Position numbers and translations under genes: made by a program. From an uncultured Gammaproteobacteria bacterium (GTDB taxonomy: Bacteria > Pseudomonadota > Gammaproteobacteria > SZUA-140): a stretch of DNA of 64,000 bases. The stretch is taken from the NCBI GenBank assembly GCA_964487925.1, contig CAZASZ010000003.1, positions 738-64,737 on the forward strand, given 5' to 3'. The notes below the pieces were generated by a model, which made no database searches, was not told the origin of the DNA, and was given only the letters and a program-made list of their open reading frames with translations. This document shows, piece after piece, positions 4,217-24,508 of the stretch. Every line of letters begins with the position of its first letter. Positions within the stretch are counted from its first letter, which is position 1.

Positions 4217-5608
<1,392 letters not shown>

Positions 5609-5675
5609 TTAATCTAAAATTCTTTAGTATCCAAGCAAACGCATCACGGTGCGGTATGCCCTGTTGACCTCATTA

Positions 5676-6536: not shown

Positions 6537-6551
6537 GGCTGACTCCCTCTA

Positions 6552-8093: not shown

Positions 8094-8117
8094 TGCACTT
8101 CCCCTCAAATGTTAAAT

Positions 8118-8654: not shown

Positions 8655-8670
8655 TTCTTATGCCTCTTGT

Positions 8671-9141
8671 TCAGATCTGCGAAACCAGATCCTTGAGGAC
8701 CTGATCGTGGGCTTGGCGATCGACCTCGCGACCCAAGATCTTCTCGGCGCCGGAGATCGCGATATCCGCCACTTGGGCTCGCAGATCCTCTTTGGCGCGA
8801 TTGAACTCCTGCGTCACCTCGGCACGGGCTGCAGTCAACAGTCGCTCGCCCTCGACCTGGGCATTCGCTTTGGCCTCATCGACGATTTCACTGGCGCGTT
8901 TTTCGGACTGCGCAATGATCTCTGCCGCCTTGCCTTTGGCCTCATGCAAAAACTCCTTAGCCTTCTTTTCAGAAAGTTCAAGGTCATGCTTACCCTTGTC
9001 AGCTGCAGCCAGGCCATCGGCAATACGTTTCTGGCGGTCCGCAAGCAGTGCGTTCAGCGGCCCCCAAAGAACTTTATTGACAAACCAGATCAGCAGGACG
9101 AAGGCCGCCATTTGCGCGATCAGCGTCACGGTAATATTCAT
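8671..9141 (-). CDS. atpF: Fo ATP synthase subunit b
   Basis: 156 aa. N-terminal TM helix followed by a long charged coiled-coil (AADKGKHDLELSEKKAKE...); operon position. Confidence 0.9.
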   Translation of the reverse strand: MNITVTLIAQMAAFVLLIWFVNKVLWGPLNALLADRQKRIADGLAAADKGKHDLELSEKKAKEFLHEAKGKAAEIIAQSEKRASEIVDEAKANAQVEGERLLTAARAEVTQEFNRAKEDLRAQVADIAISGAEKILGREVDRQAHDQVLKDLVSQI

Positions 9142-9192
9142 CTTACTCTACCCCTCATATAACTGGATGCGATCAGGTCGCGGGAACCCGGA

Positions 9193-9492
<300 letters not shown>

Positions 9493-9499
9493 CTATTCA

Positions 9500-9535
9500 A
9501 CTAAAGTTCAAAGTTCTTAAAGTGACTAAAGTATA
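9500..9535 (-). repeat. four tandem ACUUU(R) motifs in the atpB-atpE intergenic leader
   Basis: The plus strand shows AAAGT at 9503, 9510, 9519 and 9528 (7-9 nt spacing). On the mRNA strand this is a U-rich tract just upstream of the atpE RBS GGAGAG, reminiscent of the U-rich translational enhancer upstream of E. coli atpE. Confidence 0.4.
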
Positions 9536-9599
9536 AATCTCAAATCAAACAACAAATTAGCGCGGAATCGTTTTAGCGCCCCAGCGTTCTTTACAATGT

Positions 9600-10592
<993 letters not shown>

Positions 10593-10692
10593 TTAATTCT
10601 TACATGAGGACTCAACGCCCCAAAACACTTGGGCAACCCAACAGCTACTGAATTCGTATAGCCTCGGAAACCACCAGCTCACCAATATCTCA

Positions 10693-11076
10693 TCAGGCAG
10701 CGCGCCCTCGTTGCCCGCCCCTGGCCAGAAACGGGAATGCAAGTTGCGCAATCACGAATCCCACGAGTACCGCCAGCGGGTCCAGCCTAAGAATCCCCAT
10801 CCCCACGGCCAACCCAACTAGCACCAGCACGAAACGCGCCACAGCGCCGCCGTACAGGTACCAAGCGCCTGACGCAGTGTTATCCGCCATGCGGGCAACC
10901 CCGCCGCCAAGCAAATACGCTGAAACGATGCAGATCCCGGATCCATAAAGTGCAGACCAAGCCTGCCACTGCCCGGAATAGAAGAAGAAAAAACCAGCGC
11001 ACACCAGGCCAACGCTAAGCTGAATAAACAACAGCCGTTGCCTTTGTGACGTGACGCTGCGAGCCGCAACTCCCAC
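10693..11076 (-). CDS. atpI: ATP synthase protein I
   Basis: 127-aa hydrophobic four-helix protein directly upstream of atpB, the classic atpI position and size. Confidence 0.7.
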   Translation of the reverse strand: MGVAARSVTSQRQRLLFIQLSVGLVCAGFFFFYSGQWQAWSALYGSGICIVSAYLLGGGVARMADNTASGAWYLYGGAVARFVLVLVGLAVGMGILRLDPLAVLVGFVIAQLAFPFLARGGQRGRAA

Positions 11077-11077
11077 G

Positions 11078-11278
11078 TTAACTAGCTCTGCTCAACAACC
11101 GGTACACCTTCAAAAAACCGCCTATCATTCCGAGGCAGCCGAATATTAGCATAAAGAACGGGCGCGTATCCAGCCATTCATCGGTCAAATATCCGAGCAA
11201 GAAGCCGGAGATCACCATTGAGGTCAGCATGGAGCCGACGCCGACAAGGACCAAGCCCTCTGCACGCAATTTAGTCAA
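11078..11278 (-). CDS. AtpZ/Atp1-family small membrane protein (ATP synthase-associated)
   Basis: 66 aa, two TM helices. ...GFLLGYLTDEWLDTRPFFMLIFGCLGMIGGF resembles the AtpZ family signature (lGywLDkwlgTsPw...G). Sits immediately upstream of atpI, 1 nt away. Confidence 0.55.
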   Translation of the reverse strand: MTKLRAEGLVLVGVGSMLTSMVISGFLLGYLTDEWLDTRPFFMLIFGCLGMIGGFLKVYRLLSRAS

Positions 11279-11325
11279 GGTGGCACCCTGTCGGAATAAC
11301 CGCAGGAAACAGGTCCATTCCGCGG

Positions 11326-12219
11326 TTATTGAATCCGCCCGAGGATGCCCTCGAGCTGATCGAGATCGTTATACTCAATAATCAGGCGGCCCTTTCCAGA
11401 CGCCTGATGCTGAAAGCGAACACCCGCCCCCAAGCGCTGAGTAAGGTCGTCTTGGAGTTGCAAGATATCGGTATCCGTCTCCTTGTGAACCTTGGGCGAG
11501 CCACCGAGGCCGATCTGCTCTGCCGCCGCCTTTTCCCTGCGCACGAGCTGCTCGGCCTCACGCACCGAAAAACCGCGACTGACGATCTTGCGCGCGATCG
11601 CGGGCTGTGCATCGAGGTCAAGTGCAAGCAGCGCGCGGGCGTGGCCCATCTCCAGTTGACGATGGGAAAGCATTTCGCGGACATCGGCGTGCAGTTCACC
11701 AAGCCTGAGTAGATTGGTCACTGCTGCGCGCGACCGGCCGACGGCCTCGGCGGTCTGCTGATGGGTCAGACCGAATTCATCTATGAGCCGGCGCAGAGCC
11801 CGCGACTCCTCCATGGGATTGAGGTTCTCGCGTTGGATGTTCTCAATCAGCGCCATGGCCAACGCGACCTGATCGGTCACGTCACGTATTACGACAGGAA
11901 CCTCATGCAGCCCTGCCATTTGAGCCGCCCGCCAACGCCGTTCGCCAGCGATGATCTCATAGCGCTGATCGTCGAGCGCACGCACCACGATCGGCTGCAC
12001 GACGCCCTGAGCGCGAATCGAAGCGGCCAGGTCCTCAAGGGCCGACGGCTCGATCTCGTCGCGCGGCTGATAACGGCCACGCTGCATCAAATCGACCGGA
12101 AGCGTCGTCAGGCGGTCGGCGGGACCACGCTGTGCGGAGCCGGACCCTTGCCCCTGGTCGCCACTCGCTGCCAACAGGGCATCCAGACCACGTCCCAAAC
12201 CCCTCTTTTTTACCGCCAT
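11326..12219 (-). CDS. parB: chromosome partitioning protein ParB
   Basis: MAVKKRGLGRGLDALL N-terminus; ParB box GERRWRAA; HTH region. Confidence 0.95.
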   Translation of the reverse strand: MAVKKRGLGRGLDALLAASGDQGQGSGSAQRGPADRLTTLPVDLMQRGRYQPRDEIEPSALEDLAASIRAQGVVQPIVVRALDDQRYEIIAGERRWRAAQMAGLHEVPVVIRDVTDQVALAMALIENIQRENLNPMEESRALRRLIDEFGLTHQQTAEAVGRSRAAVTNLLRLGELHADVREMLSHRQLEMGHARALLALDLDAQPAIARKIVSRGFSVREAEQLVRREKAAAEQIGLGGSPKVHKETDTDILQLQDDLTQRLGAGVRFQHQASGKGRLIIEYNDLDQLEGILGRIQ

Positions 12220-12278
12220 GCTTTCATCCTGCCTTCATAGTGTTGGGGAATCTCTGACCGATCTCGATTTCTCTCGAA

Positions 12279-13079
12279 TTAATCAGCGACACCTAAATTC
12301 ACAACCGCCGGCTCGATCTCGCGGCGACGACGCAACATCTCACCAGCCAACGCGAGATAGGCCTGCGCGCCCAGCGAGGATTTATCATAATGCAATACGG
12401 GCAGCCCATGGCTGGGCGCCTCGGCCAGCCGAACATTGCGCGGGACTACTGTATTGAACACCTGTTTGTCGAAATGCGACAACAACTGTCCGGCAACCTC
12501 GTTGGCCAAACGATTGCGGCCATCGTACATGGTTCTGAGCAAGCCTTCGATCCTCAGCTCAGGATTGACGGAGCCCCTTATCTGTTCGATCGTTTCGAGC
12601 AACGCCGACAAACCCTCCAATGCATAGTACTCGCACTGCATCGGGATGATGACGCCGTCCGCCGCAGTCAAGGCATTGATCGTCAGCATATTCAACGACG
12701 GTGGACAGTCGATGAAGATAAATTCGTACTGTGACGCCACTTCGGCAAGGATATGGCCCAGAGCCCGCTGACCTTCGCCGCGCCGCATGAGTTGCACCTC
12801 GGCGGCTGTGAGGTCCCCATTGGCAGGTAACAGGTCAAAGCCACCTTCGACATGGACCAGGGCCTCGGCAAGATTGGCCTCTCCGAGCAGCACCTCGCAG
12901 CTGCCGGCATCCAAATGCCGTTTGTTGACGCCGCATCCCATGGTCGCGTTGCCTTGTGGATCCATGTCGACGAGCAGAACCCGCCGTTTCATGGCTGCGA
13001 GCGAAGCCGCAAGGTTGACGCAGGTCGTCGTCTTGCCGACGCCGCCCTTCTGGTTCGTGATTGCGATGATCTCAGCCAT
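12279..13079 (-). CDS. parA: chromosome partitioning ATPase ParA/Soj
   Basis: MAEIIAITNQKGGVGKTTT deviant Walker A; 266 aa. Confidence 0.95.
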   Translation of the reverse strand: MAEIIAITNQKGGVGKTTTCVNLAASLAAMKRRVLLVDMDPQGNATMGCGVNKRHLDAGSCEVLLGEANLAEALVHVEGGFDLLPANGDLTAAEVQLMRRGEGQRALGHILAEVASQYEFIFIDCPPSLNMLTINALTAADGVIIPMQCEYYALEGLSALLETIEQIRGSVNPELRIEGLLRTMYDGRNRLANEVAGQLLSHFDKQVFNTVVPRNVRLAEAPSHGLPVLHYDKSSLGAQAYLALAGEMLRRRREIEPAVVNLGVAD

Positions 13080-13088
13080 GTGTTCTCT

Positions 13089-13754
13089 CTATTCCGCGCA
13101 CTCAGGCGTGCTTATCAAAAGGTGGCGCTCCGCCCCCAGTCCCGGGACGGACAGTGGAACAATCTCGATCGTGCGCCCCTTGACCGGCAAGACATCCAAC
13201 TCATCCCCCGACAGACGCCCCTTCATCATGACGATCCTACCCCGCTCCGACACTAGGTGGCTGACGAGACTCAGTATCCGGTCAGCGGCGCTAAAGGCAC
13301 GGGCAACGACGCAATCGAAGGTTTCCATCGGACGATAATCCTCGATACGGGCATGTTCGGTACGGGCATTTCCAAGCCCGAGCTCTGCGATCGCCTGGGT
13401 AACGAAGGCCAGCTTTTTACGGTTGCTATCCAGCATGACAATCTCCCACTCGGGATGCATCATCGCAAGTAGGATACCCGGAAGCCCTGCCCCCGTCCCA
13501 ACATCCAGGATACACGGCCCGCGTACATGGGGTTCGATGGCTATGCAATCAAGGGCATGACCACGCATCATCTCGCCCGGACCGCTCATTGCCGTCAGAT
13601 TATAAACCCCATTCCATTTTTCCAGCAGGTGCAGATACTCGGTCACCTGTCGCGCCAACGCGGCATCGGGCGCCATGCCCATCGCGGCCATGGAATCGCT
13701 TAGGGAACCAGCAAGGGATTCCCATGTCTCAGAGTTGTGCATGGGGCGTATCAT
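13089..13754 (-). CDS. rsmG: 16S rRNA (guanine527-N7)-methyltransferase
   Basis: SAM-binding motif ILDVGTGAGLPGILLA; conserved position next to parA. The start may be one of several in-frame ATGs near the N-terminus. Confidence 0.88.
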   Translation of the reverse strand: MIRPMHNSETWESLAGSLSDSMAAMGMAPDAALARQVTEYLHLLEKWNGVYNLTAMSGPGEMMRGHALDCIAIEPHVRGPCILDVGTGAGLPGILLAMMHPEWEIVMLDSNRKKLAFVTQAIAELGLGNARTEHARIEDYRPMETFDCVVARAFSAADRILSLVSHLVSERGRIVMMKGRLSGDELDVLPVKGRTIEIVPLSVPGLGAERHLLISTPECAE

Positions 13755-14061
13755 CGCTGGTCATAAGGAAAGGCTCAAGCCCCGCAAACAACTTCTATCA
13801 CACCATTGGAAACGGCCCCAGTACTTATAACCATCCCATCCGTGCCGTTACACGACATGAACTGCTGTGTGCAGAGACGCGACCAACGGTTATACTACGC
13901 GCGATTTTGGACGCAATTTTGGTGGAGCGGCTGAATCTTACGGGGCTGCGATACACCCGTCATCATAAAACTGTAATATTAGCAGGATAGCGTTGTCTCC
14001 TCGCCGGAATCGCGACTGTTCGGCTCAAGACACAAACACCAACGGATAAACGACACCGCCA

Positions 14062-16065
14062 ATGCCTATCGAAACACCTACAGAACAGACCATCCATTCG
14101 GCGCCCAGCGCGCGAGCAATGGTCAGGTCCCGTATTGGGACACTGCTTCTGATCTGGTGCCTAACAGCATTGAATACGGCCGCGTTGGCTGAACCCATCA
14201 CGCTGAACCTCAAGGACGCCGACATCGGGGCCGTCATCACGACTGTCGCGGACATCACGGGCAAGAACTTCATCGTAGACCCGCGAGTCAAGGGCAAAGT
14301 CACGATCATCTCGTCGCGACCCATGGACAAAGAGGCGGTCTATCAGGTCTTTCTGTCCCTGCTGAGCGTCCACGGCTTCTCTGCGGTCGAGAGTGGCAAT
14401 GTTATCAAGATTCTTCCCGACGCAAATGCCAAGCAGAACGCCCTGCCGGTCCTTGATGATACCCGCCGCGAGGACAATGATGCCGTCGTGACCCGCATCA
14501 TCGAGCTGCACAATGTCTCTGCAGCACAGTTGGTCCCGATCTTGAGACCGCTGGTCCCGCAACAAGGTCACCTAGCGGCCTATGTACCGGGCAATACCCT
14601 GATCATTTCCGACCGCGCCGCCAATATTCAGCGCATCGTAGAGATCATCGAACGCATCGACCTGCCAAACAATGAAGAGATAGAGATCATCCCGCTCGAG
14701 CATGCCTCTGCCACCGATATCGCACGCACACTGACCACGCTGACCCAAAGCAACAAGGGCGCCGGCAGGCAGGCCAATGTGAGTGAGTCCACGTCGGTCA
14801 TCATTGCCGATGAACGCACCAACAGCATCCTGTTGGGCGGTAGCAAGTCGGGGCGTTTGCGGTTGCGCACCCTGATTTCGCATCTCGATACGCCACTCGT
14901 CAACGAGGGCAATACACAAGTCATCTATCTACACTATGCGCGTGCAAAGGATCTCGTACCGATCCTGACCGGTATCAACACGAGTCTTGAACAACAGGCC
15001 AAAGCCAAGGGCGGCGCGGTGGCAAAGGCCAATGACCCGGTCAGCATCCAGGCTGATGAAAGCACCAATGCGCTGATCATCACGGCCCCACCCAGCACAC
15101 TGAGCTCGCTGCAGTCCGTCGTTCGTCAGCTGGATATCCGTCGGGCTCAAGTCCTCGTCGAATCGGTTATCGCGGAGGTCCAAGCCAACGCCAACAACGA
15201 GCTGGGCATCGAGTGGGTCGTGGACAGCACACCGGGCGGCAACGGGCCGGTTGGGGTCAGCAACTTCGGCAACATCGCCGGGGTAGCTTCCGCAGTCGCC
15301 ACGAAAAACCTGCCCACTCTGCCCATTGGGCTGACCATGGGCATCGGACGGTTCAACTCGGGCAATATCAATTTTGCGGCCATCCTTCATGCACTCAAGG
15401 GCGATGCCTCTACCAATATCCTGTCCACACCCTCGATCATCACGCTCGATAATGAGGAAGCTGAAATCGTCGTCGGCCAAGAGGTCCCGTTCGTCACCGG
15501 ATCGTTTACGTCTACCGGCAGCTCGACCTCGCCGACCAACCCATTTCAAACCATCAACCGCAAGAATGTCGGCCTGACGCTCAAGGTCACGCCCCAGATC
15601 AACGAGGGTAACGCCATCAACCTGGCGATCGATCAGTCCATCGACAGCCTGAGCGCGAGTTCGTTGAACGCCGTCGATCTCGTGACTAACAAGCGTTCTA
15701 TCAAGACCTCGATCCTGGTCGAGGACGGCCAGATGATCGTACTCGGTGGATTGATCAAAGACGACCTCAAAGACACCACACAAAAGGTTCCGTTGCTCGG
15801 TGACATCCCAGTACTGGGCTGGCTGTTTACGAGCAAGTCGACAACCAAGGAAAAGACCAACCTCATGGTATTCCTACGCCCCACGATTATTCGCGACAGC
15901 GCGCTCGCGACTCGTATCAGCGATGGCAAATACCGCTATATCCAGGACCTCCAACAGTCCATTAAAGATCGCGACGACACCATGCTGCCCAAGGAAGAGG
16001 CGCCCGTCATCCAGCCGTTGGACGACTATCTGCCGCCGCCCCCGCCGATCGAGGAATCACCGTAG
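14062..16065 (+). CDS. gspD: type II secretion system secretin
   Basis: 667 aa. N0-N3 domains (NLKDADIGAVITTVADITGKNFIVDPRVKGKVTI...), a secretin domain (NILSTPSIITLDNEEAEIVVGQEVPFVTG...VPLLGDIPVLGWLF) and an S-domain tail. The signal peptide probably starts at the internal M (MVRSRIGTLLLIW...). Confidence 0.95.
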   Translation: MPIETPTEQTIHSAPSARAMVRSRIGTLLLIWCLTALNTAALAEPITLNLKDADIGAVITTVADITGKNFIVDPRVKGKVTIISSRPMDKEAVYQVFLSLLSVHGFSAVESGNVIKILPDANAKQNALPVLDDTRREDNDAVVTRIIELHNVSAAQLVPILRPLVPQQGHLAAYVPGNTLIISDRAANIQRIVEIIERIDLPNNEEIEIIPLEHASATDIARTLTTLTQSNKGAGRQANVSESTSVIIADERTNSILLGGSKSGRLRLRTLISHLDTPLVNEGNTQVIYLHYARAKDLVPILTGINTSLEQQAKAKGGAVAKANDPVSIQADESTNALIITAPPSTLSSLQSVVRQLDIRRAQVLVESVIAEVQANANNELGIEWVVDSTPGGNGPVGVSNFGNIAGVASAVATKNLPTLPIGLTMGIGRFNSGNINFAAILHALKGDASTNILSTPSIITLDNEEAEIVVGQEVPFVTGSFTSTGSSTSPTNPFQTINRKNVGLTLKVTPQINEGNAINLAIDQSIDSLSASSLNAVDLVTNKRSIKTSILVEDGQMIVLGGLIKDDLKDTTQKVPLLGDIPVLGWLFTSKSTTKEKTNLMVFLRPTIIRDSALATRISDGKYRYIQDLQQSIKDRDDTMLPKEEAPVIQPLDDYLPPPPPIEESP

Positions 16066-16067
16066 CG

Positions 16068-17612
16068 GTGACCGGCGGACAGCAACCCATGTCCATCTCC
16101 GACCTCGCGACCGATCAGTCGATACCGATGAACGAAGCGGCGACAACACTGACCATTCCCTTCGCGTTCGCCAAACGTCACGGTGTGCTCGTAACACCAT
16201 CGCACGAAGGTCCGCCGACGGTGCTGATGCGTCACGGGTTTTCACCGCTCGCCCTGGCGGAACTCGGCCGAAATATCCCGACCGGCTTCAAACTTCGCTG
16301 CATCTCTGCGGACGAATTCGATAAGACCTTGCGTTCGGCCTACGAGGACAATAGCAGTCAAAGCATGGCCATTATGGGTGAGGTCGGTGAAGACATGGAC
16401 CTCAACAGCATTGCCCAGGCATTGCCCGAACCACAGGATCTGCTCGAAAGCGATGACGACGCGCCGGTCATCCGGCTCATCAATGCGCTATTCACCGAGG
16501 CCGTCAAGGAAAATGCCTCCGATATCCACGTCGAGCCCTTCGAGTCCAGACTGCTCGTCCGTTTCCGGGTCGATGGCGTCCTCAGAGAGATCCTCGAACC
16601 GGCCCGCGTGCTGGCGCCTATCCTTGTCTCTCGAATCAAGGTCATGGCAAAGCTCGATATCGCCGAAAAACGCCTGCCTCAAGACGGCCGAATCTCGCTA
16701 CGCATCGCCGGCCGAGCCGTCGACGTCCGCGTCTCGACCATGCCGGCCGGTCATGGTGAGCGCGTCGTCATGCGTCTACTCGACAAACAGGCGGGGCGTA
16801 TCGATCTCGAACGACTTGGGATGGCGCCCCATGACCTACGGTCTATCAACGAAGTTATTCAACGGCCACACGGCATCATCCTGGTCACAGGCCCAACCGG
16901 TTCCGGTAAGACGACCAGCCTCTACGCCATGTTGAGCCGACTCAATAACCACATCAGCAATATCATGACGGTTGAGGACCCGATCGAATACTATCTGGAC
17001 GGTATCAGTCAGACCCAGGTTCAGACCAAGGTCGACATGAGCTTTGCGCGAGGCCTTCGGGCCATCCTGCGTCAGGACCCGGACGTCGTCATGGTCGGTG
17101 AGATCCGTGACCTCGAGACCGCAGAGATCGCGGTCCAGGCCAGTCTGACGGGTCACCTCGTGCTGTCGACACTTCACACCAACAGCGCCACCGGCGCCAT
17201 CGTGCGCATGCGAGACATGGGTGTAGAGGCCTTCCTGCTGTCATCTAGCATCGTCGGCATCATCGCCCAGCGCCTGCTCCGGCTGCTCTGCCCCGAATGC
17301 AAGACGGCCTATGAACCCAATCGTGAGGATTGCGAGAAACTCAACATCCCGTTCGAGGAAGGCCGAGCCATCTATCACTCGGTCGGCTGTCCGCATTGCA
17401 AGGGGATGGGTTACATCGGCCGGACCGCGATCTTCGAGGTCGTGACGATCAACGACCAGATGCGTACGATGATCCACGACGGCAGCTCAGAACAGACGCT
17501 AGAGGCCGCCGCGCGTCGTCGCGGCCCCGGGATTTACGATGATGGTATGCGCCGCGTCCTGAGCGGCGAAACCTCGGTCGATGAACTGCTGCGCGTCATC
17601 CATGGTGCCTGA
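16068..17612 (+). CDS. gspE: type II secretion ATPase
   Basis: Walker A GPTGSGKTT; Asp box, His box and a tetracysteine motif (CPECK...CPHCKG) as in GspE. Confidence 0.96.
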   Translation: MTGGQQPMSISDLATDQSIPMNEAATTLTIPFAFAKRHGVLVTPSHEGPPTVLMRHGFSPLALAELGRNIPTGFKLRCISADEFDKTLRSAYEDNSSQSMAIMGEVGEDMDLNSIAQALPEPQDLLESDDDAPVIRLINALFTEAVKENASDIHVEPFESRLLVRFRVDGVLREILEPARVLAPILVSRIKVMAKLDIAEKRLPQDGRISLRIAGRAVDVRVSTMPAGHGERVVMRLLDKQAGRIDLERLGMAPHDLRSINEVIQRPHGIILVTGPTGSGKTTSLYAMLSRLNNHISNIMTVEDPIEYYLDGISQTQVQTKVDMSFARGLRAILRQDPDVVMVGEIRDLETAEIAVQASLTGHLVLSTLHTNSATGAIVRMRDMGVEAFLLSSSIVGIIAQRLLRLLCPECKTAYEPNREDCEKLNIPFEEGRAIYHSVGCPHCKGMGYIGRTAIFEVVTINDQMRTMIHDGSSEQTLEAAARRRGPGIYDDGMRRVLSGETSVDELLRVIHGA

Positions 17613-17614
17613 TC

Positions 17615-18832
17615 ATGGGAGCTTATTCCTACATCGCCCTCGATCAACGTGGGCGCCAACGTAAGGGAGTTATTGAAGGCGATACACCGCGTCAGATCCG
17701 CCAGAAGTTGCGCGATCAGGGGCTTGCCGCAACCTCGTTAATCGAAATCGCCGAACAGGAAAAGGCCGCCGGCCCCCGGACAGGTCTGGGTAGACGGCCA
17801 GCCAACACCGCTGACCTTGCCCTCGTGACGCGCCAACTCGCCACGCTTGTGGGCTCGGGTCTGCCGCTCGAAGAATCGCTCCGTACAGTCGCGGAACAAT
17901 GTGAAAGACCCCGACTTAAAGGCATGATCGTCGCTATCCGCTCGCGAATCATGGAGGGTCAGTCCTTTGCTACGGCGCTCAACGACTTTCCCCGCGTCTT
18001 TTCAGATCTCTACCGCGCCACGGTCTCCGCTGGTGAGCAATCGGGACATCTCGAGGGTGTGCTGGACCGCCTCGCGGACTATACGGAGGAGCACCAGGCT
18101 ACTCGACAACGAGTCGTGCTATCCCTGATCTACCCTATCCTCGTTCTGGTCGTTGCCATACTGGTTGTAGCTCTGTTACTGGCCTATGTCGTGCCTCAGG
18201 TCGTATCCGTGTTCTCGGACATGGGTCAGGAACTTCCCGCCTTGACACAGGCCATGATCGCGGCTAGCGACTTCATTCGCGCACAAGGCCTATTTGTACT
18301 GGCTTTAACAGTGTCCATCGTTTTGGTCGCTCGAATTCTCCTGCGCCGGCCTCGGATCAAACAGGCCGTACATCGTTTCTGGCTCGCCATGCCCTTGATC
18401 TCCGGTCTCGTCAAGGGCATGAACGCAGCCCGCTTCGCACGCACGCTCAGCATCCTGTCGGCCAGTGGCGTCCCGGTCCTCGACGCCTTGCACATCGCGG
18501 CTCAGGTCGTGACTAATCTGCCGATGCGCAACGCTGTCGATATGGCTGCCCGCCAGGTTCGGGAAGGGGCCTCGCTCCACGTCTCGCTCGAGCGTAGCGG
18601 TTATTTTCCGCCGCTGACCGTGCAGCTCATTGCGAGCGGCGAGGCCAGTGGAAAACTCGATCTCATGCTTGAGCGCGCGGCCAACAGCCAGGAACGCGAA
18701 CTCGATGCCTTGATCAAGACCATGACCGGCCTGTTCGGCCCGCTTATGATCCTGGGAATGGGTGGCATGGTCCTGCTGATCGTGCTCGCTATCCTGATGC
18801 CTATCTTCAACCTCAATCAGCTCCTCGTCTAA
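17615..18832 (+). CDS. gspF: type II secretion inner-membrane platform protein
   Basis: 405 aa. Two repeated GspF cytoplasmic domains and three TM helices; follows gspE. Confidence 0.94.
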   Translation: MGAYSYIALDQRGRQRKGVIEGDTPRQIRQKLRDQGLAATSLIEIAEQEKAAGPRTGLGRRPANTADLALVTRQLATLVGSGLPLEESLRTVAEQCERPRLKGMIVAIRSRIMEGQSFATALNDFPRVFSDLYRATVSAGEQSGHLEGVLDRLADYTEEHQATRQRVVLSLIYPILVLVVAILVVALLLAYVVPQVVSVFSDMGQELPALTQAMIAASDFIRAQGLFVLALTVSIVLVARILLRRPRIKQAVHRFWLAMPLISGLVKGMNAARFARTLSILSASGVPVLDALHIAAQVVTNLPMRNAVDMAARQVREGASLHVSLERSGYFPPLTVQLIASGEASGKLDLMLERAANSQERELDALIKTMTGLFGPLMILGMGGMVLLIVLAILMPIFNLNQLLV

Positions 18833-18857
18833 CGCAATCTTTCAGAGAGAAATCGCC

Positions 18858-19274
18858 ATGTCATTTGTGCAAACACGCGCCACTTCAAGATCCCGAAAAC
18901 AACGCGGCTTCACGCTGATCGAAGTCCTGGTCGTCGTCGTGATCCTCGGTATCCTCGCCGCCATCATCGTCCCGAATATCATGGACAAACCCGGCTTGGC
19001 CCGCATCACCAAGGCCAAGTCCGATATCCGTGCGGTCGAGGCCGCCCTGAATATGTACCGTCTCGATAACCACAACTACCCGACGACCGACGAGGGTCTA
19101 GCCAAGCTCGTCGGCAAATACCTGCCGCGCCTGCCGATGGACCCTTGGGACCGGGAATACCTCTACCTGTATCCGGGTGTGCAATCCGAGGTCGATGTCT
19201 ATACCCTGGGTCGTGACGGCCAGGAAGGCGGCCAGGATGAAGACGCCGATATCGGCAACTGGGACCTCAACTAA
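18858..19274 (+). CDS. gspG: type II secretion major pseudopilin
   Basis: Prepilin signature ...KQRG|FTLIEVLVVVVILGILAAIIVPNIM; GspG-like C-terminus with a calcium-binding region (DPWDREY). Confidence 0.95.
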   Translation: MSFVQTRATSRSRKQRGFTLIEVLVVVVILGILAAIIVPNIMDKPGLARITKAKSDIRAVEAALNMYRLDNHNYPTTDEGLAKLVGKYLPRLPMDPWDREYLYLYPGVQSEVDVYTLGRDGQEGGQDEDADIGNWDLN

Positions 19275-19295
19275 ACACGGCGGCCGTAGCCCATC

Positions 19296-19856
19296 ATGAC
19301 CGCCTACTGGACGCTGCCTCACGGCCGGCTGGTCACACCATGGCGCCGGGTACAGAAGGGTTTCACGCTCCTTGAGGTTCTCGTGGTGGTCTTTATCGTC
19401 GGAATCATTTTGAGCGTGGCCGTGATCAGCATCCCTGCCGATAAAGAAAAGGCTCTGCAGACCGAGGCTGAGCGTATCGACGCTCTGATCGGCCTGGCCC
19501 AGCAGGAGGCCATCATCCGCGACCGTGAGCTGGCGCTGGAGGTCAAATCCGATGGCTATCGTTTCCTGATCCAGGACGAGGCATCGTGGACGCCCATGCC
19601 CGACTCGAACTTCAGGCCCAGGTCATTGGAGGAGCCGATGCAGCTTGAGCTCGTCATGGAAGGCATCCCTCTCCTGACACGCGATGAAGGACAAGACTCG
19701 GATGGCGAAGACGACCAAGCGCCGCGGATTTTCATCCTGTCCAGTGGAGAGCTCTCCCAGTTTACGATCAGTGTGGCACACCCGGAGGTCCCCGTTGAGT
19801 TCCTGATCCACGGTGACATTTCCGGTCGCCACTCCGTGGAGAAAAAGGCCAAATGA
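19296..19856 (+). CDS. gspH: type II secretion minor pseudopilin
   Basis: Prepilin motif QKG|FTLLEVLVVVFIVGII; operon position. Confidence 0.85.
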   Translation: MTAYWTLPHGRLVTPWRRVQKGFTLLEVLVVVFIVGIILSVAVISIPADKEKALQTEAERIDALIGLAQQEAIIRDRELALEVKSDGYRFLIQDEASWTPMPDSNFRPRSLEEPMQLELVMEGIPLLTRDEGQDSDGEDDQAPRIFILSSGELSQFTISVAHPEVPVEFLIHGDISGRHSVEKKAK

Positions 19857-20260
19857 TAGGCCACTGGCCCCCGCTGGCCCGCGCCCGCTGCAACGGATTC
19901 ACGCTGCTCGAAATCATGGTCGCGCTCGCCGTACTGGCCATCGCCCTGGCCGCGATCGTGACCGAGTCCAGTCAGAACATTAAGAACCTGATACGCCTGC
20001 GCGAGCACACTATCGCCCACTGGGTGGCAATGAATCGAATCGCCGAACTCCAGCTCCAACCCGCGTGGCCCGCGACTGGTCAGGCATCCGGAGTCGTCGA
20101 GATGGCCCACGGTAGTTGGCGCTGGGAGACCCGCGTCACGGACACCGACGACGATGCCGTGCGACGACTGGACATCGACGTCCTAAAAGACACGCCTCGC
20201 AATGATGACGTACTGGAGCATTTGATCTCCTATCTTGGACAACCGATGGTGAACCCCTGA
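19853..20260 (+). CDS. gspI: type II secretion minor pseudopilin
   Basis: Prepilin motif CNG|FTLLEIMVALAVLAIALAAIV; 135 aa; 4-nt overlap with gspH. Confidence 0.85.
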   Translation: MIGHWPPLARARCNGFTLLEIMVALAVLAIALAAIVTESSQNIKNLIRLREHTIAHWVAMNRIAELQLQPAWPATGQASGVVEMAHGSWRWETRVTDTDDDAVRRLDIDVLKDTPRNDDVLEHLISYLGQPMVNP

Positions 20261-20262
20261 CC

Positions 20263-20943
20263 ATGGTAGCAACCGTTGTAGGCAAACGTATGCGTGCCCC
20301 AAGACGGACGCCGAGCGCAGCTGGTGAATGGGGATTCACGCTGATCGAGCTGCTGGTGGCGCTGGCAATCTTCGCGATTCTCGCGGTTATGGCCTACCGC
20401 GGGCTGGATGTAGTCCTGACCACGGACCAGGTGGGTCAGGCCCAGGCCAAGCGGCTTGCGCGCCTGCAAACCGCCTATCGGCTCGTGGGTAGAGATGTCG
20501 AACAAATTGTGGCCCGTTCCATACGTGACCAGTTCGGCGACAGACAGCCGGCGCTCATCGGCGATTCCAGCACAATCGAAATGTCCCGAATCGGCTGGAG
20601 AAACCCCGCGCACTTGCCGCGAAGCCGGATTCAACGGGTCGGCTATCAGCTTACAGAGGACAACCTGCTCCGGTCGAGTTGGGGTGTCCTCGATCGTGCC
20701 CAGGATACGGAACCGACCGGATCGGAGGTCCTGAATGATATCGATGAACTCGGCTTTCGTTACTTCGACTTAGAGCAAGGATGGCAAACCCACTGGCCAC
20801 TCGACAATGAGGATGCCTCCCGACTGGTCCTACCCGCGGCCGTTGAGGTGACGCTTACCTTGAAGGACTTTGGCAACATCGTGTGGCTCTTCCGTGTCCC
20901 TTCCGGCAGCGTTCCGACGCCGACCAACAATGGTAGCAACTAA
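20263..20943 (+). CDS. gspJ: type II secretion minor pseudopilin
   Basis: Prepilin motif EWG|FTLIELLVALAIFAILAVMAYRGLD; 226 aa. Confidence 0.85.
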   Translation: MVATVVGKRMRAPRRTPSAAGEWGFTLIELLVALAIFAILAVMAYRGLDVVLTTDQVGQAQAKRLARLQTAYRLVGRDVEQIVARSIRDQFGDRQPALIGDSSTIEMSRIGWRNPAHLPRSRIQRVGYQLTEDNLLRSSWGVLDRAQDTEPTGSEVLNDIDELGFRYFDLEQGWQTHWPLDNEDASRLVLPAAVEVTLTLKDFGNIVWLFRVPSGSVPTPTNNGSN

Positions 20944-20944
20944 T

Positions 20945-21892
20945 ATGCCGGTAATTAGTGCGCCGAAACCCCGACGCGAGCAACGCGGTATCGCCCTGAT
21001 CACGGCCATGCTCGTGACTGCCATCGCCGCGACCGCGGCTGTCAACATGGCCTCGCGACAGCAGATCGACTTTAGACGCAGCGAAAATCTGTTCGGCGCC
21101 GACCAGGGTTATCTGTTCGCCCTCGGGGTCGAGTCCTGGGCAAGCCAGATTTTGCGCCGAGACGCCCAGGAGGGCAACATCGACAGCCTTGATGAAGACT
21201 GGGCCGTCACTCTGCCGCCGATCGCCGTCGAGGGCGCGGTCCTATCGGGCGGCATCGAGGATCTGCAGAGCCGCTTCAACCTCAACAATCTGATCAAAAA
21301 CAACGCGGTCAGCGAACCCGACCTCAAACGCTTTAAACGACTCTTGAAAAATCTCGAAATCGATGAAGCCGTTGCCGATGCCGTGGTAGACTGGCTCGAC
21401 AGTGATACCTCGCCGTTGCTCCCCGACGGTGCCGAAGACGTGGACTACTTGATACTGAGTCCAGGGTATCGCACGGCCAACGCCCCATTGGTCAGCCCGT
21501 CGGAGCTATTGCTGATAAAAGGAATCGACCAAGCCGCGTTCGAGAAACTCGAGCCCTATGTACAATGCGTCCCTGTGCGGACCTCAATCAATGTCAATAC
21601 CGCGCCGCCGGCCGTGCTGATGATGCTGGCCGATGGCCTGACACAGGCCGACGCGGAACAAATTCGGGATGACAGGACCGACAAGCACTTCGACAGCGCT
21701 TCCGAGTTTACGAATCTGCCGGTCATCAAGGGTCTTGGACAAAACTTCACGGATATCAGCGTAACGAGTCACTATTTCATGGTCAGAGCAAATACGGAAT
21801 ACGGCCACAGCCGAGTCCAAGCCACCATTATCCTGAGCCGGAATGATAAGGGCCAGACCGAGACCATATTGCGTTCTCAGGGGGGCTACTGA
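20945..21892 (+). CDS. gspK: type II secretion minor pseudopilin
   Basis: QRGIALITAMLVTAIAATAA N-terminus (the GspK-type non-cleavable pseudopilin). Start taken at the ATG 1 nt after the gspJ stop. Confidence 0.85.
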   Translation: MPVISAPKPRREQRGIALITAMLVTAIAATAAVNMASRQQIDFRRSENLFGADQGYLFALGVESWASQILRRDAQEGNIDSLDEDWAVTLPPIAVEGAVLSGGIEDLQSRFNLNNLIKNNAVSEPDLKRFKRLLKNLEIDEAVADAVVDWLDSDTSPLLPDGAEDVDYLILSPGYRTANAPLVSPSELLLIKGIDQAAFEKLEPYVQCVPVRTSINVNTAPPAVLMMLADGLTQADAEQIRDDRTDKHFDSASEFTNLPVIKGLGQNFTDISVTSHYFMVRANTEYGHSRVQATIILSRNDKGQTETILRSQGGY

Positions 21893-21895
21893 GCC

Positions 21896-23131
21896 ATGCG
21901 CCCAACGCTGTTGATTCATATCGTCTCGGGTCCCGAAGAGTCCATCGAGTGGCTTACCTGCAGCGGGGATCAAACGGTCAGTTGCGCCGATTTCGGCCAA
22001 GGTACGCTCGATGATCTCGGTGACCTCGGTCATGGCCGTGAAGTCAGGGTTCTGATCTCGGGACCGGATATCGTCCTGACGGCCGCTCGGGTCCCCGGCC
22101 GCCAACGCCAGCAAATCGCCGCCGCGCTGCCCTATCTGATCGAAGATCAGTTCATTGAGGAGGTCGAGGCCATCCATTTCGCGCTTGGGCCCCGAGACCC
22201 GGACGGCCTCGTGCATGCCGCCGCCATCAGCCACGATCGCATGCAATTTTGGCGGCAACGGCTCAGCGAGGCCGGCATCGAAGCGCAATCGATCAGTCCG
22301 GGCATCCTCTACCTACCATTCGACGACAGTGGTTGGACCGTGGTCGAACACCACGGATTGATGTTCGTCCGGAGCAGCCCGACATCAGGCTTCGCATGCA
22401 CCCCGGAGCACCTCGAACCCTTGCTGAGCCAGCTTTCGGAGACCGAGCGACCTGAACTCATTCGACTACATACTTTTTCCGATTCCGAACCGACCCAGTT
22501 GACATCCAACGATCAGACGATCGGCGGTATTGCGAGTGAATGGCAGCATCATGATGCCCATCTACTTGAGGTCATGACCGAGTCAATAACGAAAAAGGGA
22601 CAGATCGATCTCCTGCAAGGCCCCTACGGGCGCAGTACGAAGCTCAATCAAGTTTGGCTCAAGTGGCGGCCGGCCGCCATACTCGCCGGACTGCTCGTGA
22701 CGGCCTTGTTGGCCAACGGCGTATCCCGCGTACTGGAACTCGGCACCCGTAATGACCAGCTTCATCAGGAAATCCGCACGATATATCGAGATGCATTCCC
22801 CAACGAGAAGCGCATCGTCAACCCCCGCGTACAAATGCAGCGCCATCTAAACGCCCTGCGCGAAGGCTCGGGGCATACATCGGCGACTTGGATCATGGAC
22901 ACCTTGGACCGGACAGGCCCCGTTCTCACGGCTACATCCGGCCTTGTTCTGCAACGACTCACCTATAAAAACGAAACCTTCTCGCTGCGCCTCGACCTGC
23001 CCAACCTGGGCAGCGTCGAACAACTCAAGAACAAGTTGTCGGTGCTAGAGGACATTAACGTCGAGATCGTAACCGCTAGCTCCAACAACGGGCACGTCAC
23101 GGCAAATCTACTGCTGAAACCTAAGAGCTAG
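21896..23131 (+). CDS. gspL: type II secretion inner-membrane protein
   Basis: 411 aa. Cytoplasmic actin-like domain plus a single TM (WRPAAILAGLLVTALLANGV) and a periplasmic domain; position between gspK and gspM. Confidence 0.85.
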   Translation: MRPTLLIHIVSGPEESIEWLTCSGDQTVSCADFGQGTLDDLGDLGHGREVRVLISGPDIVLTAARVPGRQRQQIAAALPYLIEDQFIEEVEAIHFALGPRDPDGLVHAAAISHDRMQFWRQRLSEAGIEAQSISPGILYLPFDDSGWTVVEHHGLMFVRSSPTSGFACTPEHLEPLLSQLSETERPELIRLHTFSDSEPTQLTSNDQTIGGIASEWQHHDAHLLEVMTESITKKGQIDLLQGPYGRSTKLNQVWLKWRPAAILAGLLVTALLANGVSRVLELGTRNDQLHQEIRTIYRDAFPNEKRIVNPRVQMQRHLNALREGSGHTSATWIMDTLDRTGPVLTATSGLVLQRLTYKNETFSLRLDLPNLGSVEQLKNKLSVLEDINVEIVTASSNNGHVTANLLLKPKS

Positions 23132-23134
23132 AAC

Positions 23135-23629
23135 ATGCGCCGAGCCTTTGACAACCTGAGCCAATCGGAACGTACTTTGATCATTGTAGCGAGCGTCGTC
23201 CTGCTCGCCGGACTGATCTATGGTTTGGTCTGGCGCCCGTTGCAGGTCAACCTTGTAGCGCAGGAGAATAAACTCGAACAGAATCTGAAGACGGTTAAAT
23301 GGATGCGGCAATCCGCTCAGGAGCTCGCCCGGATCAAGGCTCAGACAACCGGCCAGGGGCAAAGTGGCGCCCGCCAGTCCATCCTCTCCTTGGTGGACCA
23401 GACCGCGCGCAAGGCCGGACTCGGAGACACCATCAAACGCGTCGAGCCGGCCGGCCAGGGCAAGGTCCGAATCCGTATGGAGTCCGTCGCCTTCGACGAC
23501 ATGATTGCCTGGCTTGAAGGTCTCCTGAGGTCATCGGCGATCGCCATCGAGAGTATCGCCGTAGACCGCAGTGATCTACAGGGCCTTGTCGATGCCCACC
23601 TCACGCTATCTGATCCGACTGCGCAATGA
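23135..23629 (+). CDS. gspM: type II secretion inner-membrane protein
   Basis: 164 aa, N-terminal TM (LIIVASVVLLAGLIYGLVW); position after gspL. Confidence 0.82.
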   Translation: MRRAFDNLSQSERTLIIVASVVLLAGLIYGLVWRPLQVNLVAQENKLEQNLKTVKWMRQSAQELARIKAQTTGQGQSGARQSILSLVDQTARKAGLGDTIKRVEPAGQGKVRIRMESVAFDDMIAWLEGLLRSSAIAIESIAVDRSDLQGLVDAHLTLSDPTAQ

Positions 23630-24420
23630 GGGCACACAAATGGCATTTTCTTGTTTTCGGGATTCTGATCTACGTGGTCGCCCTGGTCGTAACCTTTCCG
23701 GCGAATCGCGCCTATGGATGGATCAGACCCACGCTCGGATCAAACATCCCGGTGCAGCTATATGGCGTCAATGGTACGGTCTGGTCGGGTACGGCAAGCC
23801 AAGCGCAGCTATTCGATTATGCAGTCAACGACCTGCATTGGAGACTCCACCCACTTGCCCTACTTCTCGGCAGTTTGGAAGTGGCCCTCGACGCGCCTTT
23901 GTCCGGGGGACGCGCCACCGGCACGCTGATTCGCCCTTTGACCGGACAGGGGCTCTCGATCGAGACACCGCATATTGATCTGCCTCTCGCCACATTGTTG
24001 GATGCCAACCGTTTTCCAACCCCCATCGCAGGACGCCTGACGGGCGATCTGACTCGGGTCGACATCACCGATAGTGGTGAGTTTCAAGTCGATACAGGCG
24101 ACCTTTTGATCCGGGATTTAACTGTGCAGGCACTGGGTCAGCTCGCACTCGGGGAATTCAAAGTCAGGATTGAGCACGATACCAAAGGCGCCCTACTGAT
24201 CAAGACAACGGATACCGGCGGCCCACTGAAATTGAACGCGACCGTGACATTTGCGAACAACGATCGCTATATGCTGATCGCGGAGCTCAGCGCACGGAAC
24301 AATCGCGACGCCGTATTGATGCAAACGCTGCGCATGCTGGGGGCCCCCGACCGCACAGGGACATACAGGATTCAGCGCCAGGGCTCGATCAAGCAGGACT
24401 TGGCCCTTTTGGGTGGTTAG
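23626..24420 (+). CDS. gspN: type II secretion protein N
   Basis: 264 aa, N-terminal TM, GspN-like; last gene of the operon, 4-nt overlap with gspM. Confidence 0.75.
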   Translation: MRAHKWHFLVFGILIYVVALVVTFPANRAYGWIRPTLGSNIPVQLYGVNGTVWSGTASQAQLFDYAVNDLHWRLHPLALLLGSLEVALDAPLSGGRATGTLIRPLTGQGLSIETPHIDLPLATLLDANRFPTPIAGRLTGDLTRVDITDSGEFQVDTGDLLIRDLTVQALGQLALGEFKVRIEHDTKGALLIKTTDTGGPLKLNATVTFANNDRYMLIAELSARNNRDAVLMQTLRMLGAPDRTGTYRIQRQGSIKQDLALLGG

Positions 24421-24457: not shown

Positions 24458-24508
24458 TAACGAGGCCTTCGACCCACCCCAAAAGAAGGATGAATCGAAG
24501 GCCTCGTT
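24458..24508. terminator. bidirectional stem-loop between convergent gspN and rho
   Basis: 14-bp perfect inverted repeat AACGAGGCCTTCGA ... TCGAAGGCCTCGTT (24458-24472 / 24495-24508). On the minus strand it is followed by ACGUUUUGAGG. Confidence 0.5.

What the first reader, a model, noticed from the sequence alone, without database searches (positions are those of the whole stretch)
14062..24420. Complete gspD-N operon without gspC or gspO, with unusually long pseudopilin leaders
Eleven contiguous T2SS genes (D,E,F,G,H,I,J,K,L,M,N) are present. The secretin-gating protein GspC and the prepilin peptidase GspO are not in the locus, and nothing precedes gspD except the rsmG intergenic region. 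The predicted pseudopilin leader peptides before the conserved G|F cleavage site are long compared with the 6-8 aa typical of GspG (for example MSFVQTRATSRSRKQRG|F for GspG; 22 aa for GspH). Either start codons are mis-set or the processing is atypical. The secretin also lacks an obvious pilotin neighbour.
Basis: partly seen in the sequence, partly recalled or inferred. Interest (0 to 1): 0.5.

Follow-up and report, generated by a model that had tools for sequence, protein, structure and literature searches.

The report
Split type II secretion operon, gspC unlinked
This is an ordinary, intact type II protein-secretion operon (gspD to gspN) from an uncultured gammaproteobacterium; in a related genome the "missing" gspC sits at the operon's old chromosomal site, and the long pseudopilin leaders are normal for this branch of bacteria.

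Summary
Window 14062-24420 (+) carries eleven contiguous T2SS genes, gspDEFGHIJKLMN, between rsmG(-) and rho(-). All eleven pass curated family cut-offs. No gspC or prepilin peptidase gene lies anywhere in the 64 kb.

The interpretation of something atypical does not hold.

(1) 70 of 80 related loci have a canonical gspC (HR + PDZ) directly upstream of gspD. The window belongs to a clade whose operon sits at the same derived site, parB-parA-rsmG-(glgP)|gspD..N|rho, without gspC.

(2) In one MAG of that clade (WGFB01), gspD-N is on contig 45. A conserved gspC that passes TIGR01713 is on contig 109, in the context polA-DUF2782-HGSNAT-gspC-rpmE. Other lineages have the whole gspC-M operon at that same site. 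So gspD-N moved and gspC stayed behind.

Its presence there is inferred, not shown.

(4) The leaders of 14-24 aa are real: no closer start codons exist and the Met positions are conserved. They are also clade-typical: 116 of 120 closest GspG homologues have leaders of 12 aa or more. They fall inside the published 6-26 aa range.

(5) A gspO outside the operon is the norm, because PilD is shared with type IV pili.

Verdict: ordinary, with a modest evolutionary vignette.

The parts
13755..14118 (+). rsmG-gspD intergenic region; presumed promoter region of the operon
   Evidence: No ORF with a family hit (ORF 13589-13990: 0 families). No Rfam family. No promoter-like match above chance. In sister lineages L003/L004/L005/L007/L009 a glycogen phosphorylase gene (-) lies here.
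14062..16065 (+). gspD secretin (likely true start ATG 14119)
   Evidence: TIGR02517 591.7 bits; Pfam N0, Secretin_N x3, Secretin. The N0 domain is 96% identical within the window lineage and 75% identical to gspC-linked outgroups.
16068..17612 (+). gspE ATPase
   Evidence: TIGR02533 687.4 bits; T2SSE and GSPE_N1E.
17615..18832 (+). gspF inner-membrane platform
   Evidence: TIGR02120 504.5 bits.
18858..19274 (+). gspG major pseudopilin; leader MSFVQTRATSRSRKQRG|F, 17 aa
   Evidence: TIGR01710 147.5 bits. Only ATG or GTG at codon 4 are possible starts. Met at -17 is conserved in L083 and L086.
19296..19856 (+). gspH minor pseudopilin; 22-aa leader
   Evidence: TIGR01708 86.8 bits. A single in-frame start. 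Met at -22 is conserved in L083 and L086.
19853..20260 (+). gspI minor pseudopilin; 15-aa leader
   Evidence: TIGR01707 86.7 bits. A single in-frame start that overlaps the gspH stop, preceded by GGAG.
20263..20943 (+). gspJ minor pseudopilin; leader 24 aa (or 15 aa)
   Evidence: TIGR01711 178 bits. Met at -24 is present in all three genomes of the window lineage.
20930..21892 (+). gspK minor pseudopilin (no Glu5); leader 20 or 15 aa
   Evidence: NF037980 303.9 bits. Start options. The gene caller on the identical contig L001 chose the 315-aa form.
21896..23131 (+). gspL
   Evidence: TIGR01709 264.9 bits; T2SSL and GspL_C.
23135..23629 (+). gspM
   Evidence: PF04612 at 9e-32, 110.9 bits.
23626..24420 (+). 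gspN (a true GspN, not a GspC/XpsN-type protein)
   Evidence: PF01203 T2SSN at 9.3e-36. No hit to the GspC HMM. gspC-linked relatives carry both gspC and gspN.
24460..24507 (.). 20-bp-stem hairpin between convergent gspN and rho; likely bidirectional terminator that ends the operon
   Evidence: Terminator-like scan, 20 pairs of which 11 are G-C.

Best explanation
The locus is a canonical, functional type II secretion operon, gspDEFGHIJKLMN, of an uncultured gammaproteobacterium. Its relatives are MAGs labelled Chromatiales, Thiohalobacter, Thiogranum and similar. The ancestral arrangement was gspCDEFGHIJKLMN downstream of polA-DUF2782-HGSNAT. In the common ancestor of the window's clade, the block gspD-N was moved to a site between rsmG and rho near the replication origin, while gspC stayed at the old site, next to rpmE. 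The machine therefore works like any other T2SS. GspC (TM + HR + PDZ), encoded elsewhere, links the GspL/M/F platform to the N0 domain of the GspD secretin. The five pseudopilins are inserted into the inner membrane. A prepilin peptidase encoded elsewhere, most likely the PilD of the type IV pilus genes, cleaves them after the conserved Gly. GspE then powers pseudopilus assembly. [quoted passage not shown] Shown here: the gene identities, the absence of C and O from the 64 kb, the clade-wide synteny, the unlinked gspC in a same-clade MAG, and that the leaders are real and common. Inferred: that the window's own genome still has gspC and pilD, the direction of the move, and secretion activity.
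For: 70 of 80 related loci have a T2SSC+PDZ gene directly upstream of gspD. The window, L083, L084, L086, L003, L004, L005, L007 and L009 share rsmG-(glgP)|gspD..N and lack gspC; where the sequence reaches past gspN (window, L086, L004, L005) rho follows, except in L083, where a PilZ gene does. They group together on a GspD NJ tree (69% bootstrap for the core clade, 100% for each subclade). In the GspC tree, clades sister to the L017-type GspC are not adjacent to any gspD. All eight orphan-type GspC proteins looked up (P0183, P0189, P0197, P0221, P0208, P0241, P0248, P0256) lie in DUF2782-HGSNAT-gspC-rpmE, preceded by polA wherever the contig extends that far. P0199 has HGSNAT-gspC-gspD..M at that same site. 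The same-MAG link: L099 is WGFB01000109.1 (orphan gspC; TIGR01713 134.5 bits against a cut-off of 101.6) and L005 is WGFB01000045.1 (gspD-N without gspC). Their tetranucleotide correlation is 0.94. The orphan GspC proteins are well conserved across TM, HR and PDZ (mean column identity 65%). The N0 domain of the window's GspD is not relaxed. Leaders: 116 of 120 closest GspG homologues have leaders of 12 aa or more, mostly 14-20. Across related loci the median longest-ATG leader is 16 aa for GspG and GspH. Met positions are conserved in three genomes. The published range is 6-26 aa (PMC4471445). Precedents for split T2SS loci and a shared PilD are Legionella and Acinetobacter. pilMNO lies on the orphan-gspC contigs L090 and L092.
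Against: No gspC was found for the window's own lineage (window, L083, L086). All orphan-gspC contigs I fetched pair by tetranucleotide composition with the L004/L005/L009 subclade (r 0.90-0.96) and not with the window lineage (r<=0.82; the within-genome control is 0.91-0.96). Two orphan gspC contigs from the same sample as L083 clearly belong to another organism (r 0.66-0.73). The same-MAG link depends on metagenomic binning. The GspD tree supports the gspC-less clade only moderately (69%), and L013 lacks gspC but groups elsewhere. No pilD was seen in any contig of the gspC-less clade.
Confidence: 0.8

Rival explanations
1. The window's lineage has truly lost gspC. Its T2SS then either works without a GspC linker, with another protein or GspN bridging the platform and the secretin, or is on its way to decay.
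For: No gspC in 64 kb. No orphan gspC contig with the compositional signature of the window lineage among about 15 examined. The window lineage sits on a long branch in the GspD tree.
Against: All 11 genes are intact in three genomes of the lineage, at 91-93% GspD identity. The GspC-docking N0 domain is the best conserved periplasmic domain (96% within the lineage, 75% to gspC-linked outgroups, similar to L004/L005, whose MAG has gspC). The sister subclade, with the same insertion site, keeps a conserved unlinked gspC.
Confidence: 0.08
2. The last gene, 'gspN', is really the GspC equivalent, as XpsN is in the Xanthomonas xpsE-N,D cluster, so nothing is missing.
For: It occupies the position after gspM, as XpsN does. 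That comparison is from my own knowledge of the Xps system and was not tested here.
Against: It matches Pfam T2SSN (PF01203, 124 bits) and not T2SSC. The GspC HMM does not hit it. Relatives with a bona fide gspC upstream of gspD also carry this gspN.
Confidence: 0.02
3. The long leaders are annotation artefacts; the true starts lie downstream and give leaders of 6-8 aa.
For: GspJ and GspK each have a second ATG that would shorten the leader to 15 aa.
Against: GspG, GspH and GspI have no in-frame ATG, GTG or TTG closer than -14, -22 and -15. Even the shortest possible options are 14 aa or more. The Met positions are conserved in sister genomes. 116 of 120 homologues have leaders of 12 aa or more.
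Confidence: 0.03
4. The rsmG|gspD junction, and hence the absence of gspC, is an assembly or binning chimera.
For: The closest relatives are all metagenome-derived.
Against: The same junction is present in independent assemblies from other samples (L083, L084, L086). L001 is identical to the window over 17 kb. Composition is uniform across the window.
Confidence: 0.01

Closest known systems
Legionella pneumophila Lsp T2SS (lspC, lspDE, lspFGHIJK, lspLM, pilBCD)
   Same: The T2SS core genes are split over several loci. lspC stands alone in its own small operon. The prepilin peptidase is PilD, the last gene of pilBCD, and is shared with type IV pili (PMC6617341).
   Different: Here only gspC, and presumably the peptidase, are separate; D-N remain one 10.4-kb operon and gspN is present. 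The orphan gspC of the clade follows an HGSNAT-family membrane protein gene, not a Sel1-repeat gene.
Acinetobacter baumannii T2SS (five gsp loci plus pilD in pilBCD)
   Same: Core gsp genes are scattered and a single PilD serves both the T2SS and type IV pili (PMC9952577).
   Different: Acinetobacter is much more fragmented than the present system.
Contiguous gspC-N operons in related uncultured gammaproteobacteria (e.g. L011, L015, L017, L088); the classical Vibrio Eps and Klebsiella Pul clusters are organised the same way (my own knowledge, not tested here)
   Same: The same eleven D-N genes in the same order, the same domain architectures, and a GspC with HR + PDZ in relatives.
   Different: gspC is not upstream of gspD in the window. 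The leaders are 14-24 aa rather than under 10 aa.
Xanthomonas Xps cluster (xpsE-N, D)
   Same: A T2SS operon in which no gene is labelled 'C'.
   Different: In Xps the protein in the N position is regarded as the GspC equivalent (my own knowledge, not tested here). The window's GspN is a true T2SSN-family protein, and gspD comes first, not last.

Membership tests
Type II secretion system (Gsp/T2SS) | Outer-membrane secretin GspD with N0, N1-N3 and secretin domains | tested here: met
   TIGR02517 591.7 bits against a cut-off of 351; PF21305, PF03958 x3, PF00263.
Type II secretion system (Gsp/T2SS) | Cytoplasmic ATPase GspE and polytopic platform protein GspF | tested here: met
   TIGR02533 687 bits (cut-off 630); TIGR02120 504 bits (cut-off 424).
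Type II secretion system (Gsp/T2SS) | Assembly-platform proteins GspL and GspM | tested here: met
   TIGR01709 264.9 bits; PF05134, PF12693, PF04612.
Type II secretion system (Gsp/T2SS) | [quoted passage not shown] | tested here: met
   TIGR01710, TIGR01708, TIGR01707, TIGR01711 and NF037980 all above cut-off; N_methyl motif in G-J; sequences.
Type II secretion system (Gsp/T2SS) | GspC (TM + HR domain + PDZ or coiled coil) linking the platform to the secretin | tested here: inconclusive
   Absent from the 64-kb window. Present unlinked in a same-clade MAG (WGFB01 contig 109 against contig 45). Not located for the window's own lineage.
Type II secretion system (Gsp/T2SS) | Prepilin peptidase GspO/PilD (Peptidase_A24) | tested here: inconclusive
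   No PilD-like sequence in the window, nor inside any of the related gsp operons fetched. PilD appears only in pilBCD-coaE beside gsp in L061, L066, L067, L078 and L082.
Type II secretion system (Gsp/T2SS) | Sec- or Tat-dependent substrates are secreted across the outer membrane | not testable with these tools
   Requires experiment.
Type IVb pilin-like subunits (long-leader class) | Long leader together with a type IVb-type mature N-terminus and a type IVb assembly machinery | tested here: not met
   Residue +1 is Phe and the N-terminus is FTLIEVLVV. The proteins score as GspG-K equivalogs inside a gsp operon. The review notes type IVa-class prepilins and pseudopilins with leaders of up to 18 aa.
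Xps-type T2SS in which the 'N' protein is the GspC homologue | The protein after GspM carries a GspC-type HR domain | tested here: not met
   PF01203 T2SSN at 9.3e-36 with no T2SSC match; no GspC-HMM hit.

The most novel reading that the evidence does not exclude
The window's own lineage (window, L083, L086) may have lost gspC altogether after the operon moved, and may run a T2SS whose secretin is coupled to the inner-membrane platform without a GspC-family protein.
Probability: 0.07. Interest if true: 0.7.

Novelty: new member of a known kind. Interest (0 to 1): 0.2.

Why it matters
It matters little for mechanism. It shows that 'missing' gspC and gspO in a T2SS locus, and leaders longer than the textbook 6-8 aa, should not be read as atypical biology without comparative context.

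Two modest points of value remain. The first is a clean, datable example of operon splitting. gspD-N moved next to the replication origin and gspC was left at the ancestral polA-HGSNAT-rpmE site, now apparently co-transcribed with, and in some genomes overlapping, the upstream HGSNAT-family gene. The second is a practical rule for annotating these uncultured sulfur-cycle and sediment gammaproteobacteria: look for gspC between the HGSNAT-family gene and rpmE.

Tried and rejected
(1) I looked for gspC and pilD inside the window with a 62-sequence GspC HMM and PilD tblastn. Nothing was found.

(2) I tried to tie orphan gspC genes to gspC-less MAGs through protein accession numbers (listing of cluster members). 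Almost no accessions were returned, so this was not useful.

(3) I tried to find the window lineage's own gspC by sample co-occurrence. P0248 and P0256 occur in the same sample as L083/L084. Tetranucleotide correlation (0.66-0.73 against a within-genome 0.91-0.96) shows they belong to another organism, so I rejected them as a link.

(4) A sigma-70 promoter scan of the operon region did not exceed chance: 6 found against 5.9 expected. Rfam found nothing.

(5) A literature search for 'gspC' plus 'unlinked' returned nothing; 'scattered' gave the Legionella and Acinetobacter precedents.

(6) A Biopython bootstrap timed out. I replaced it with a numpy implementation.

(7) I considered and rejected three readings: GspN as a GspC substitute, mis-set start codons, and an assembly chimera (see rival explanations).

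(8) I did not run structure prediction, because the sequence family matches were unambiguous.
Full report
**1. Observation**

ORF listing and translation show eleven co-directional, nearly abutting genes at 14062-24420 on the + strand. Curated profile searches identify them as follows:
- GspD: TIGR02517, 591.7 bits against a cut-off of 351.
- GspE: TIGR02533, 687 bits.
- GspF: TIGR02120, 504 bits.
- GspG, H, I, J: TIGR01710, TIGR01708, TIGR01707, TIGR01711.
- GspK: NF037980.
- GspL: TIGR01709.
- GspM: PF04612, 9e-32.
- GspN: PF01203, 9.3e-36.

Upstream lie rsmG(-), parA(-), parB(-) and the atp operon. Downstream lie rho(-), trxA(-) and rhlB(+). A 20-bp-stem hairpin at 24460-24507 sits between the convergent gspN and rho.

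GspD most likely starts at ATG 14119, which gives a classical signal peptide. An identical 17-kb contig exists in ENA sample ERZ4201062 (L001).

Nothing else in the 64 kb resembles GspC. An HMM of 62 GspC proteins, run with --max against all six-frame segments of 40 aa or more, gave no hit at E<=10. Nothing resembles a prepilin peptidase either (tblastn with two PilD seeds).

**2. Leaders**

Reading the DNA gives these start options:
- GspG can only start at the ATG (17-aa leader) or at GTG codon 4 (14 aa).
- GspH has a single possible start (22 aa).
- GspI has a single possible start (15 aa).
- GspJ has two ATGs (24 or 15 aa).
- GspK has two ATGs (20 or 15 aa).

In the two closest sister genomes (L083, L086; GspD 91-93% identical) the Met positions are conserved at -17 for GspG, -22 for GspH and -24 for GspJ, even though the leader sequences diverge fast.

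Among the 120 closest GspG homologues (66-91% identity) the distance from Met to G|F is 12 aa or more in 116, with modes at 14, 17 and 20. Across the related loci the median longest-ATG leader is 16 aa for GspG and GspH, 14 for GspI, 10 for GspJ and 12 for GspK.

The review by Berry and Pelicic gives 6-26 aa as the range of class III leader peptides. It states that the old length classes 'are not valid anymore' and that type IVa-class prepilins, found in both pili and pseudopili, have leaders of up to 18 residues (PMC4471445).

The long, basic leaders are thus real. They are a lineage trait inside the known range, and nothing suggests unusual processing.

**3. Who is it?**

The best GspD match among one genome per GTDB species is only 65% identical. 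The neighbours are uncultured gammaproteobacterial MAGs labelled Chromatiales, Thiohalobacter, Thiogranum, Thiohalomonadaceae, Competibacter and similar. Closer relatives (GspG 91%) exist only in metagenome assemblies (L083-L087).

**4. Where is gspC?**

In 70 of the 80 related loci an ORF of about 300 aa lies directly upstream of gspD. Eight were checked against Pfam and all are T2SSC (PF11356) plus PDZ.

The exceptions with enough upstream sequence are L003, L004, L005, L007, L009 and L013. In these a glycogen phosphorylase gene (-) precedes gspD. L037 is also an exception: it has the order G-N, D, E, F.

The window, L083, L084 and L086 have rsmG(-) directly before gspD. The window, L003, L004, L005, L007 and L009 share parB-parA-rsmG-(glgP)|gspD. 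Where the sequence extends far enough, they also share gspN|rho. That is the same derived chromosomal site.

On a GspD NJ tree these loci group together:
- Core clade: 69% of 300 bootstraps.
- Window lineage: 100%.
- L004/L005/L009/L008: 100%.

They fall next to the gspC-linked clade L006/L010/L014/L016/L017 and next to L088.

A profile of GspC from the gspC-linked neighbours retrieved 120 GspC proteins. In a GspC tree, three clades sister to the L017-type GspC were not adjacent to any of my gspD loci. Look-ups of their members gave a consistent picture:
- P0199 (L088) lies in polA(-)-DUF2782-APH-HGSNAT-gspC-gspD...gspM, so the full operon is at this site.
- P0189, P0183, P0197, P0221, P0208 and P0241 all lie in DUF2782-HGSNAT-gspC-rpmE. 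polA precedes this block where the contig extends that far, and SNase-maeB-mdh-gltA follow where it continues. gspC is there, but gspD-N are gone.
- DUF2782-gspC-gspD is also seen in L106 and L114, and a further orphan in L104.

The decisive link is this. One copy of P0241 is on WGFB01000109.1 (L099). That is the same MAG (isolate S146_68, GCA_015492435.1) whose contig WGFB01000045.1 is L005, the gspC-less parB-parA-rsmG-glgP|gspD..N|rho locus. The two contigs have a tetranucleotide correlation of 0.94, as expected for one genome. The orphan passes the GspC equivalog model TIGR01713 (134.5 bits against 101.6).

The orphan GspC proteins are well conserved through the TM segment, HR domain and PDZ domain. 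In L183 and L184 the gspC start overlaps the stop of the HGSNAT-family gene, which suggests co-transcription.

The simplest history is that gspD-N was translocated to the rsmG-rho site and gspC stayed at the ancestral site.

**5. Limits**

I could not find the gspC of the window's own lineage. Two orphan gspC contigs (L183, L184/L185) come from the very sample that holds L083/L084. Their tetranucleotide correlation with the window or L083 is only 0.66-0.73. The controls are 0.91-0.96 for 8-kb pieces of the window against the rest of it, and 0.94 for the same-MAG pair. They therefore belong to another organism.

All orphan contigs examined pair compositionally with the L004/L005/L009 subclade (r 0.90-0.96).

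Presence of gspC in the window's genome is thus an inference. It rests on three points:
- (i) The shared insertion site with a subclade that demonstrably keeps an unlinked gspC.
- (ii) Eleven intact genes in three diverged genomes of the lineage.
- (iii) The GspD N0 domain, the docking site of the GspC HR domain. It is the best conserved periplasmic domain: 96% within the lineage and 75% to gspC-linked outgroups, about the same as in L004/L005.

**6. gspO and pilotin**

No related gsp operon that I fetched contains a prepilin peptidase gene. PilD-like genes occur only as pilB-pilC-pilD-coaE, which happens to lie beside gspC-D in L061, L066, L067, L078 and L082. pilMNO is present on the orphan-gspC contigs L090 and L092, so type IV pili exist in the clade.

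A PilD shared between type IV pili and the T2SS, encoded in pilBCD, is the documented situation in Legionella and Acinetobacter. Absence of a neighbouring pilotin is uninformative; I did not test for one beyond the family scans of nearby ORFs.

**7. Comparison and verdict**

The system works like, and is a member of, the canonical Gsp T2SS. Every defining component that can be tested in the window is met. GspC and GspO are unlinked or unseen rather than shown absent.

It is not an Xps-type cluster, because the protein in the N position is a T2SSN-family protein and not an HR-domain protein. The pseudopilins are not type IVb-like.

Split T2SS loci with a solitary gspC are already known (Legionella lspC). 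This is therefore a new member of a known kind. The added detail is that the translocation left gspC at the ancestral polA-HGSNAT-rpmE site.

Interest is low, at 0.2. The only reading that would be surprising is a GspC-free T2SS in the window's lineage. The evidence does not exclude it, but I rate it at about 7%.

Noticed in passing
window 53701-54501 (+), after 52827-53639 (+): A 266-aa 'mini-secretin' with a signal peptide, one Secretin_N domain (1.7e-08) and a partial Secretin domain (1.1e-08). It is far shorter than GspD or PilQ and lies directly after an HDOD-domain protein and next to a GGDEF protein. It scores well below the PilQ and GspD curated cut-offs.
   Followed up: partly
window 13089-14118; L004 7205-9703; L013 7173-9677: mnmG (gidA) is not next to rsmG as in the usual mnmG-rsmG-parAB arrangement. 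In sister MAGs a glycogen phosphorylase gene (-) sits between rsmG and gspD. In the window lineage rsmG abuts the gspD intergenic region directly.
   Followed up: partly
L183 6237-7897; L184 6222-7900; L099 5218-6930: The orphan gspC genes follow, and in L183 and L184 overlap, an HGSNAT_cat/Acyl_transf_3-like membrane protein gene (237-260 aa) that has no NCBIfam match. The pairing HGSNAT-gspC is also present where the full operon is intact (L088), which suggests a conserved and uncharacterised association.
   Followed up: partly
L037 (JAKITT010000006.1) 4273-14728: A 'Candidatus Polarisedimenticolaceae' MAG has the order gspG-N then gspD-E-F, with no GspC-HMM hit in the 22 kb fetched. This is another rearranged T2SS locus.
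   Followed up: no
L184 (ERZ27249683 k141_975578, 241 kb), L183, L105: Two further orphan-gspC lineages (73% identical to each other, GC about 55%) co-occur in the same sample as the window's sister L083/L084 but differ in composition. Split T2SS loci therefore seem widespread among these sediment gammaproteobacteria.
   Followed up: partly
L026 (CAVYIJ010000008.1): A contig with rho-trxA-rhlB-gspC-gspDEF of gammaproteobacterial type is deposited in a MAG labelled 'uncultured Halobacteria archaeon'. This is probably a binning or label error. Its gspE and gspF also appear frameshifted.
   Followed up: no
window 20263-20273 and 20930-20940: gspJ and gspK both begin with the same 11 nt, ATGGTAGCAAC (MVAT). 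In gspK this start lies inside the end of gspJ. It is probably coincidence or a small duplication and is of unclear significance.
   Followed up: no
window 51463-52830 (+): An alkaline/neutral invertase (Glyco_hydro_100, 4.9e-187). To my knowledge this family is best known from cyanobacteria and plants. It hints at sucrose metabolism in this gammaproteobacterium.
   Followed up: no
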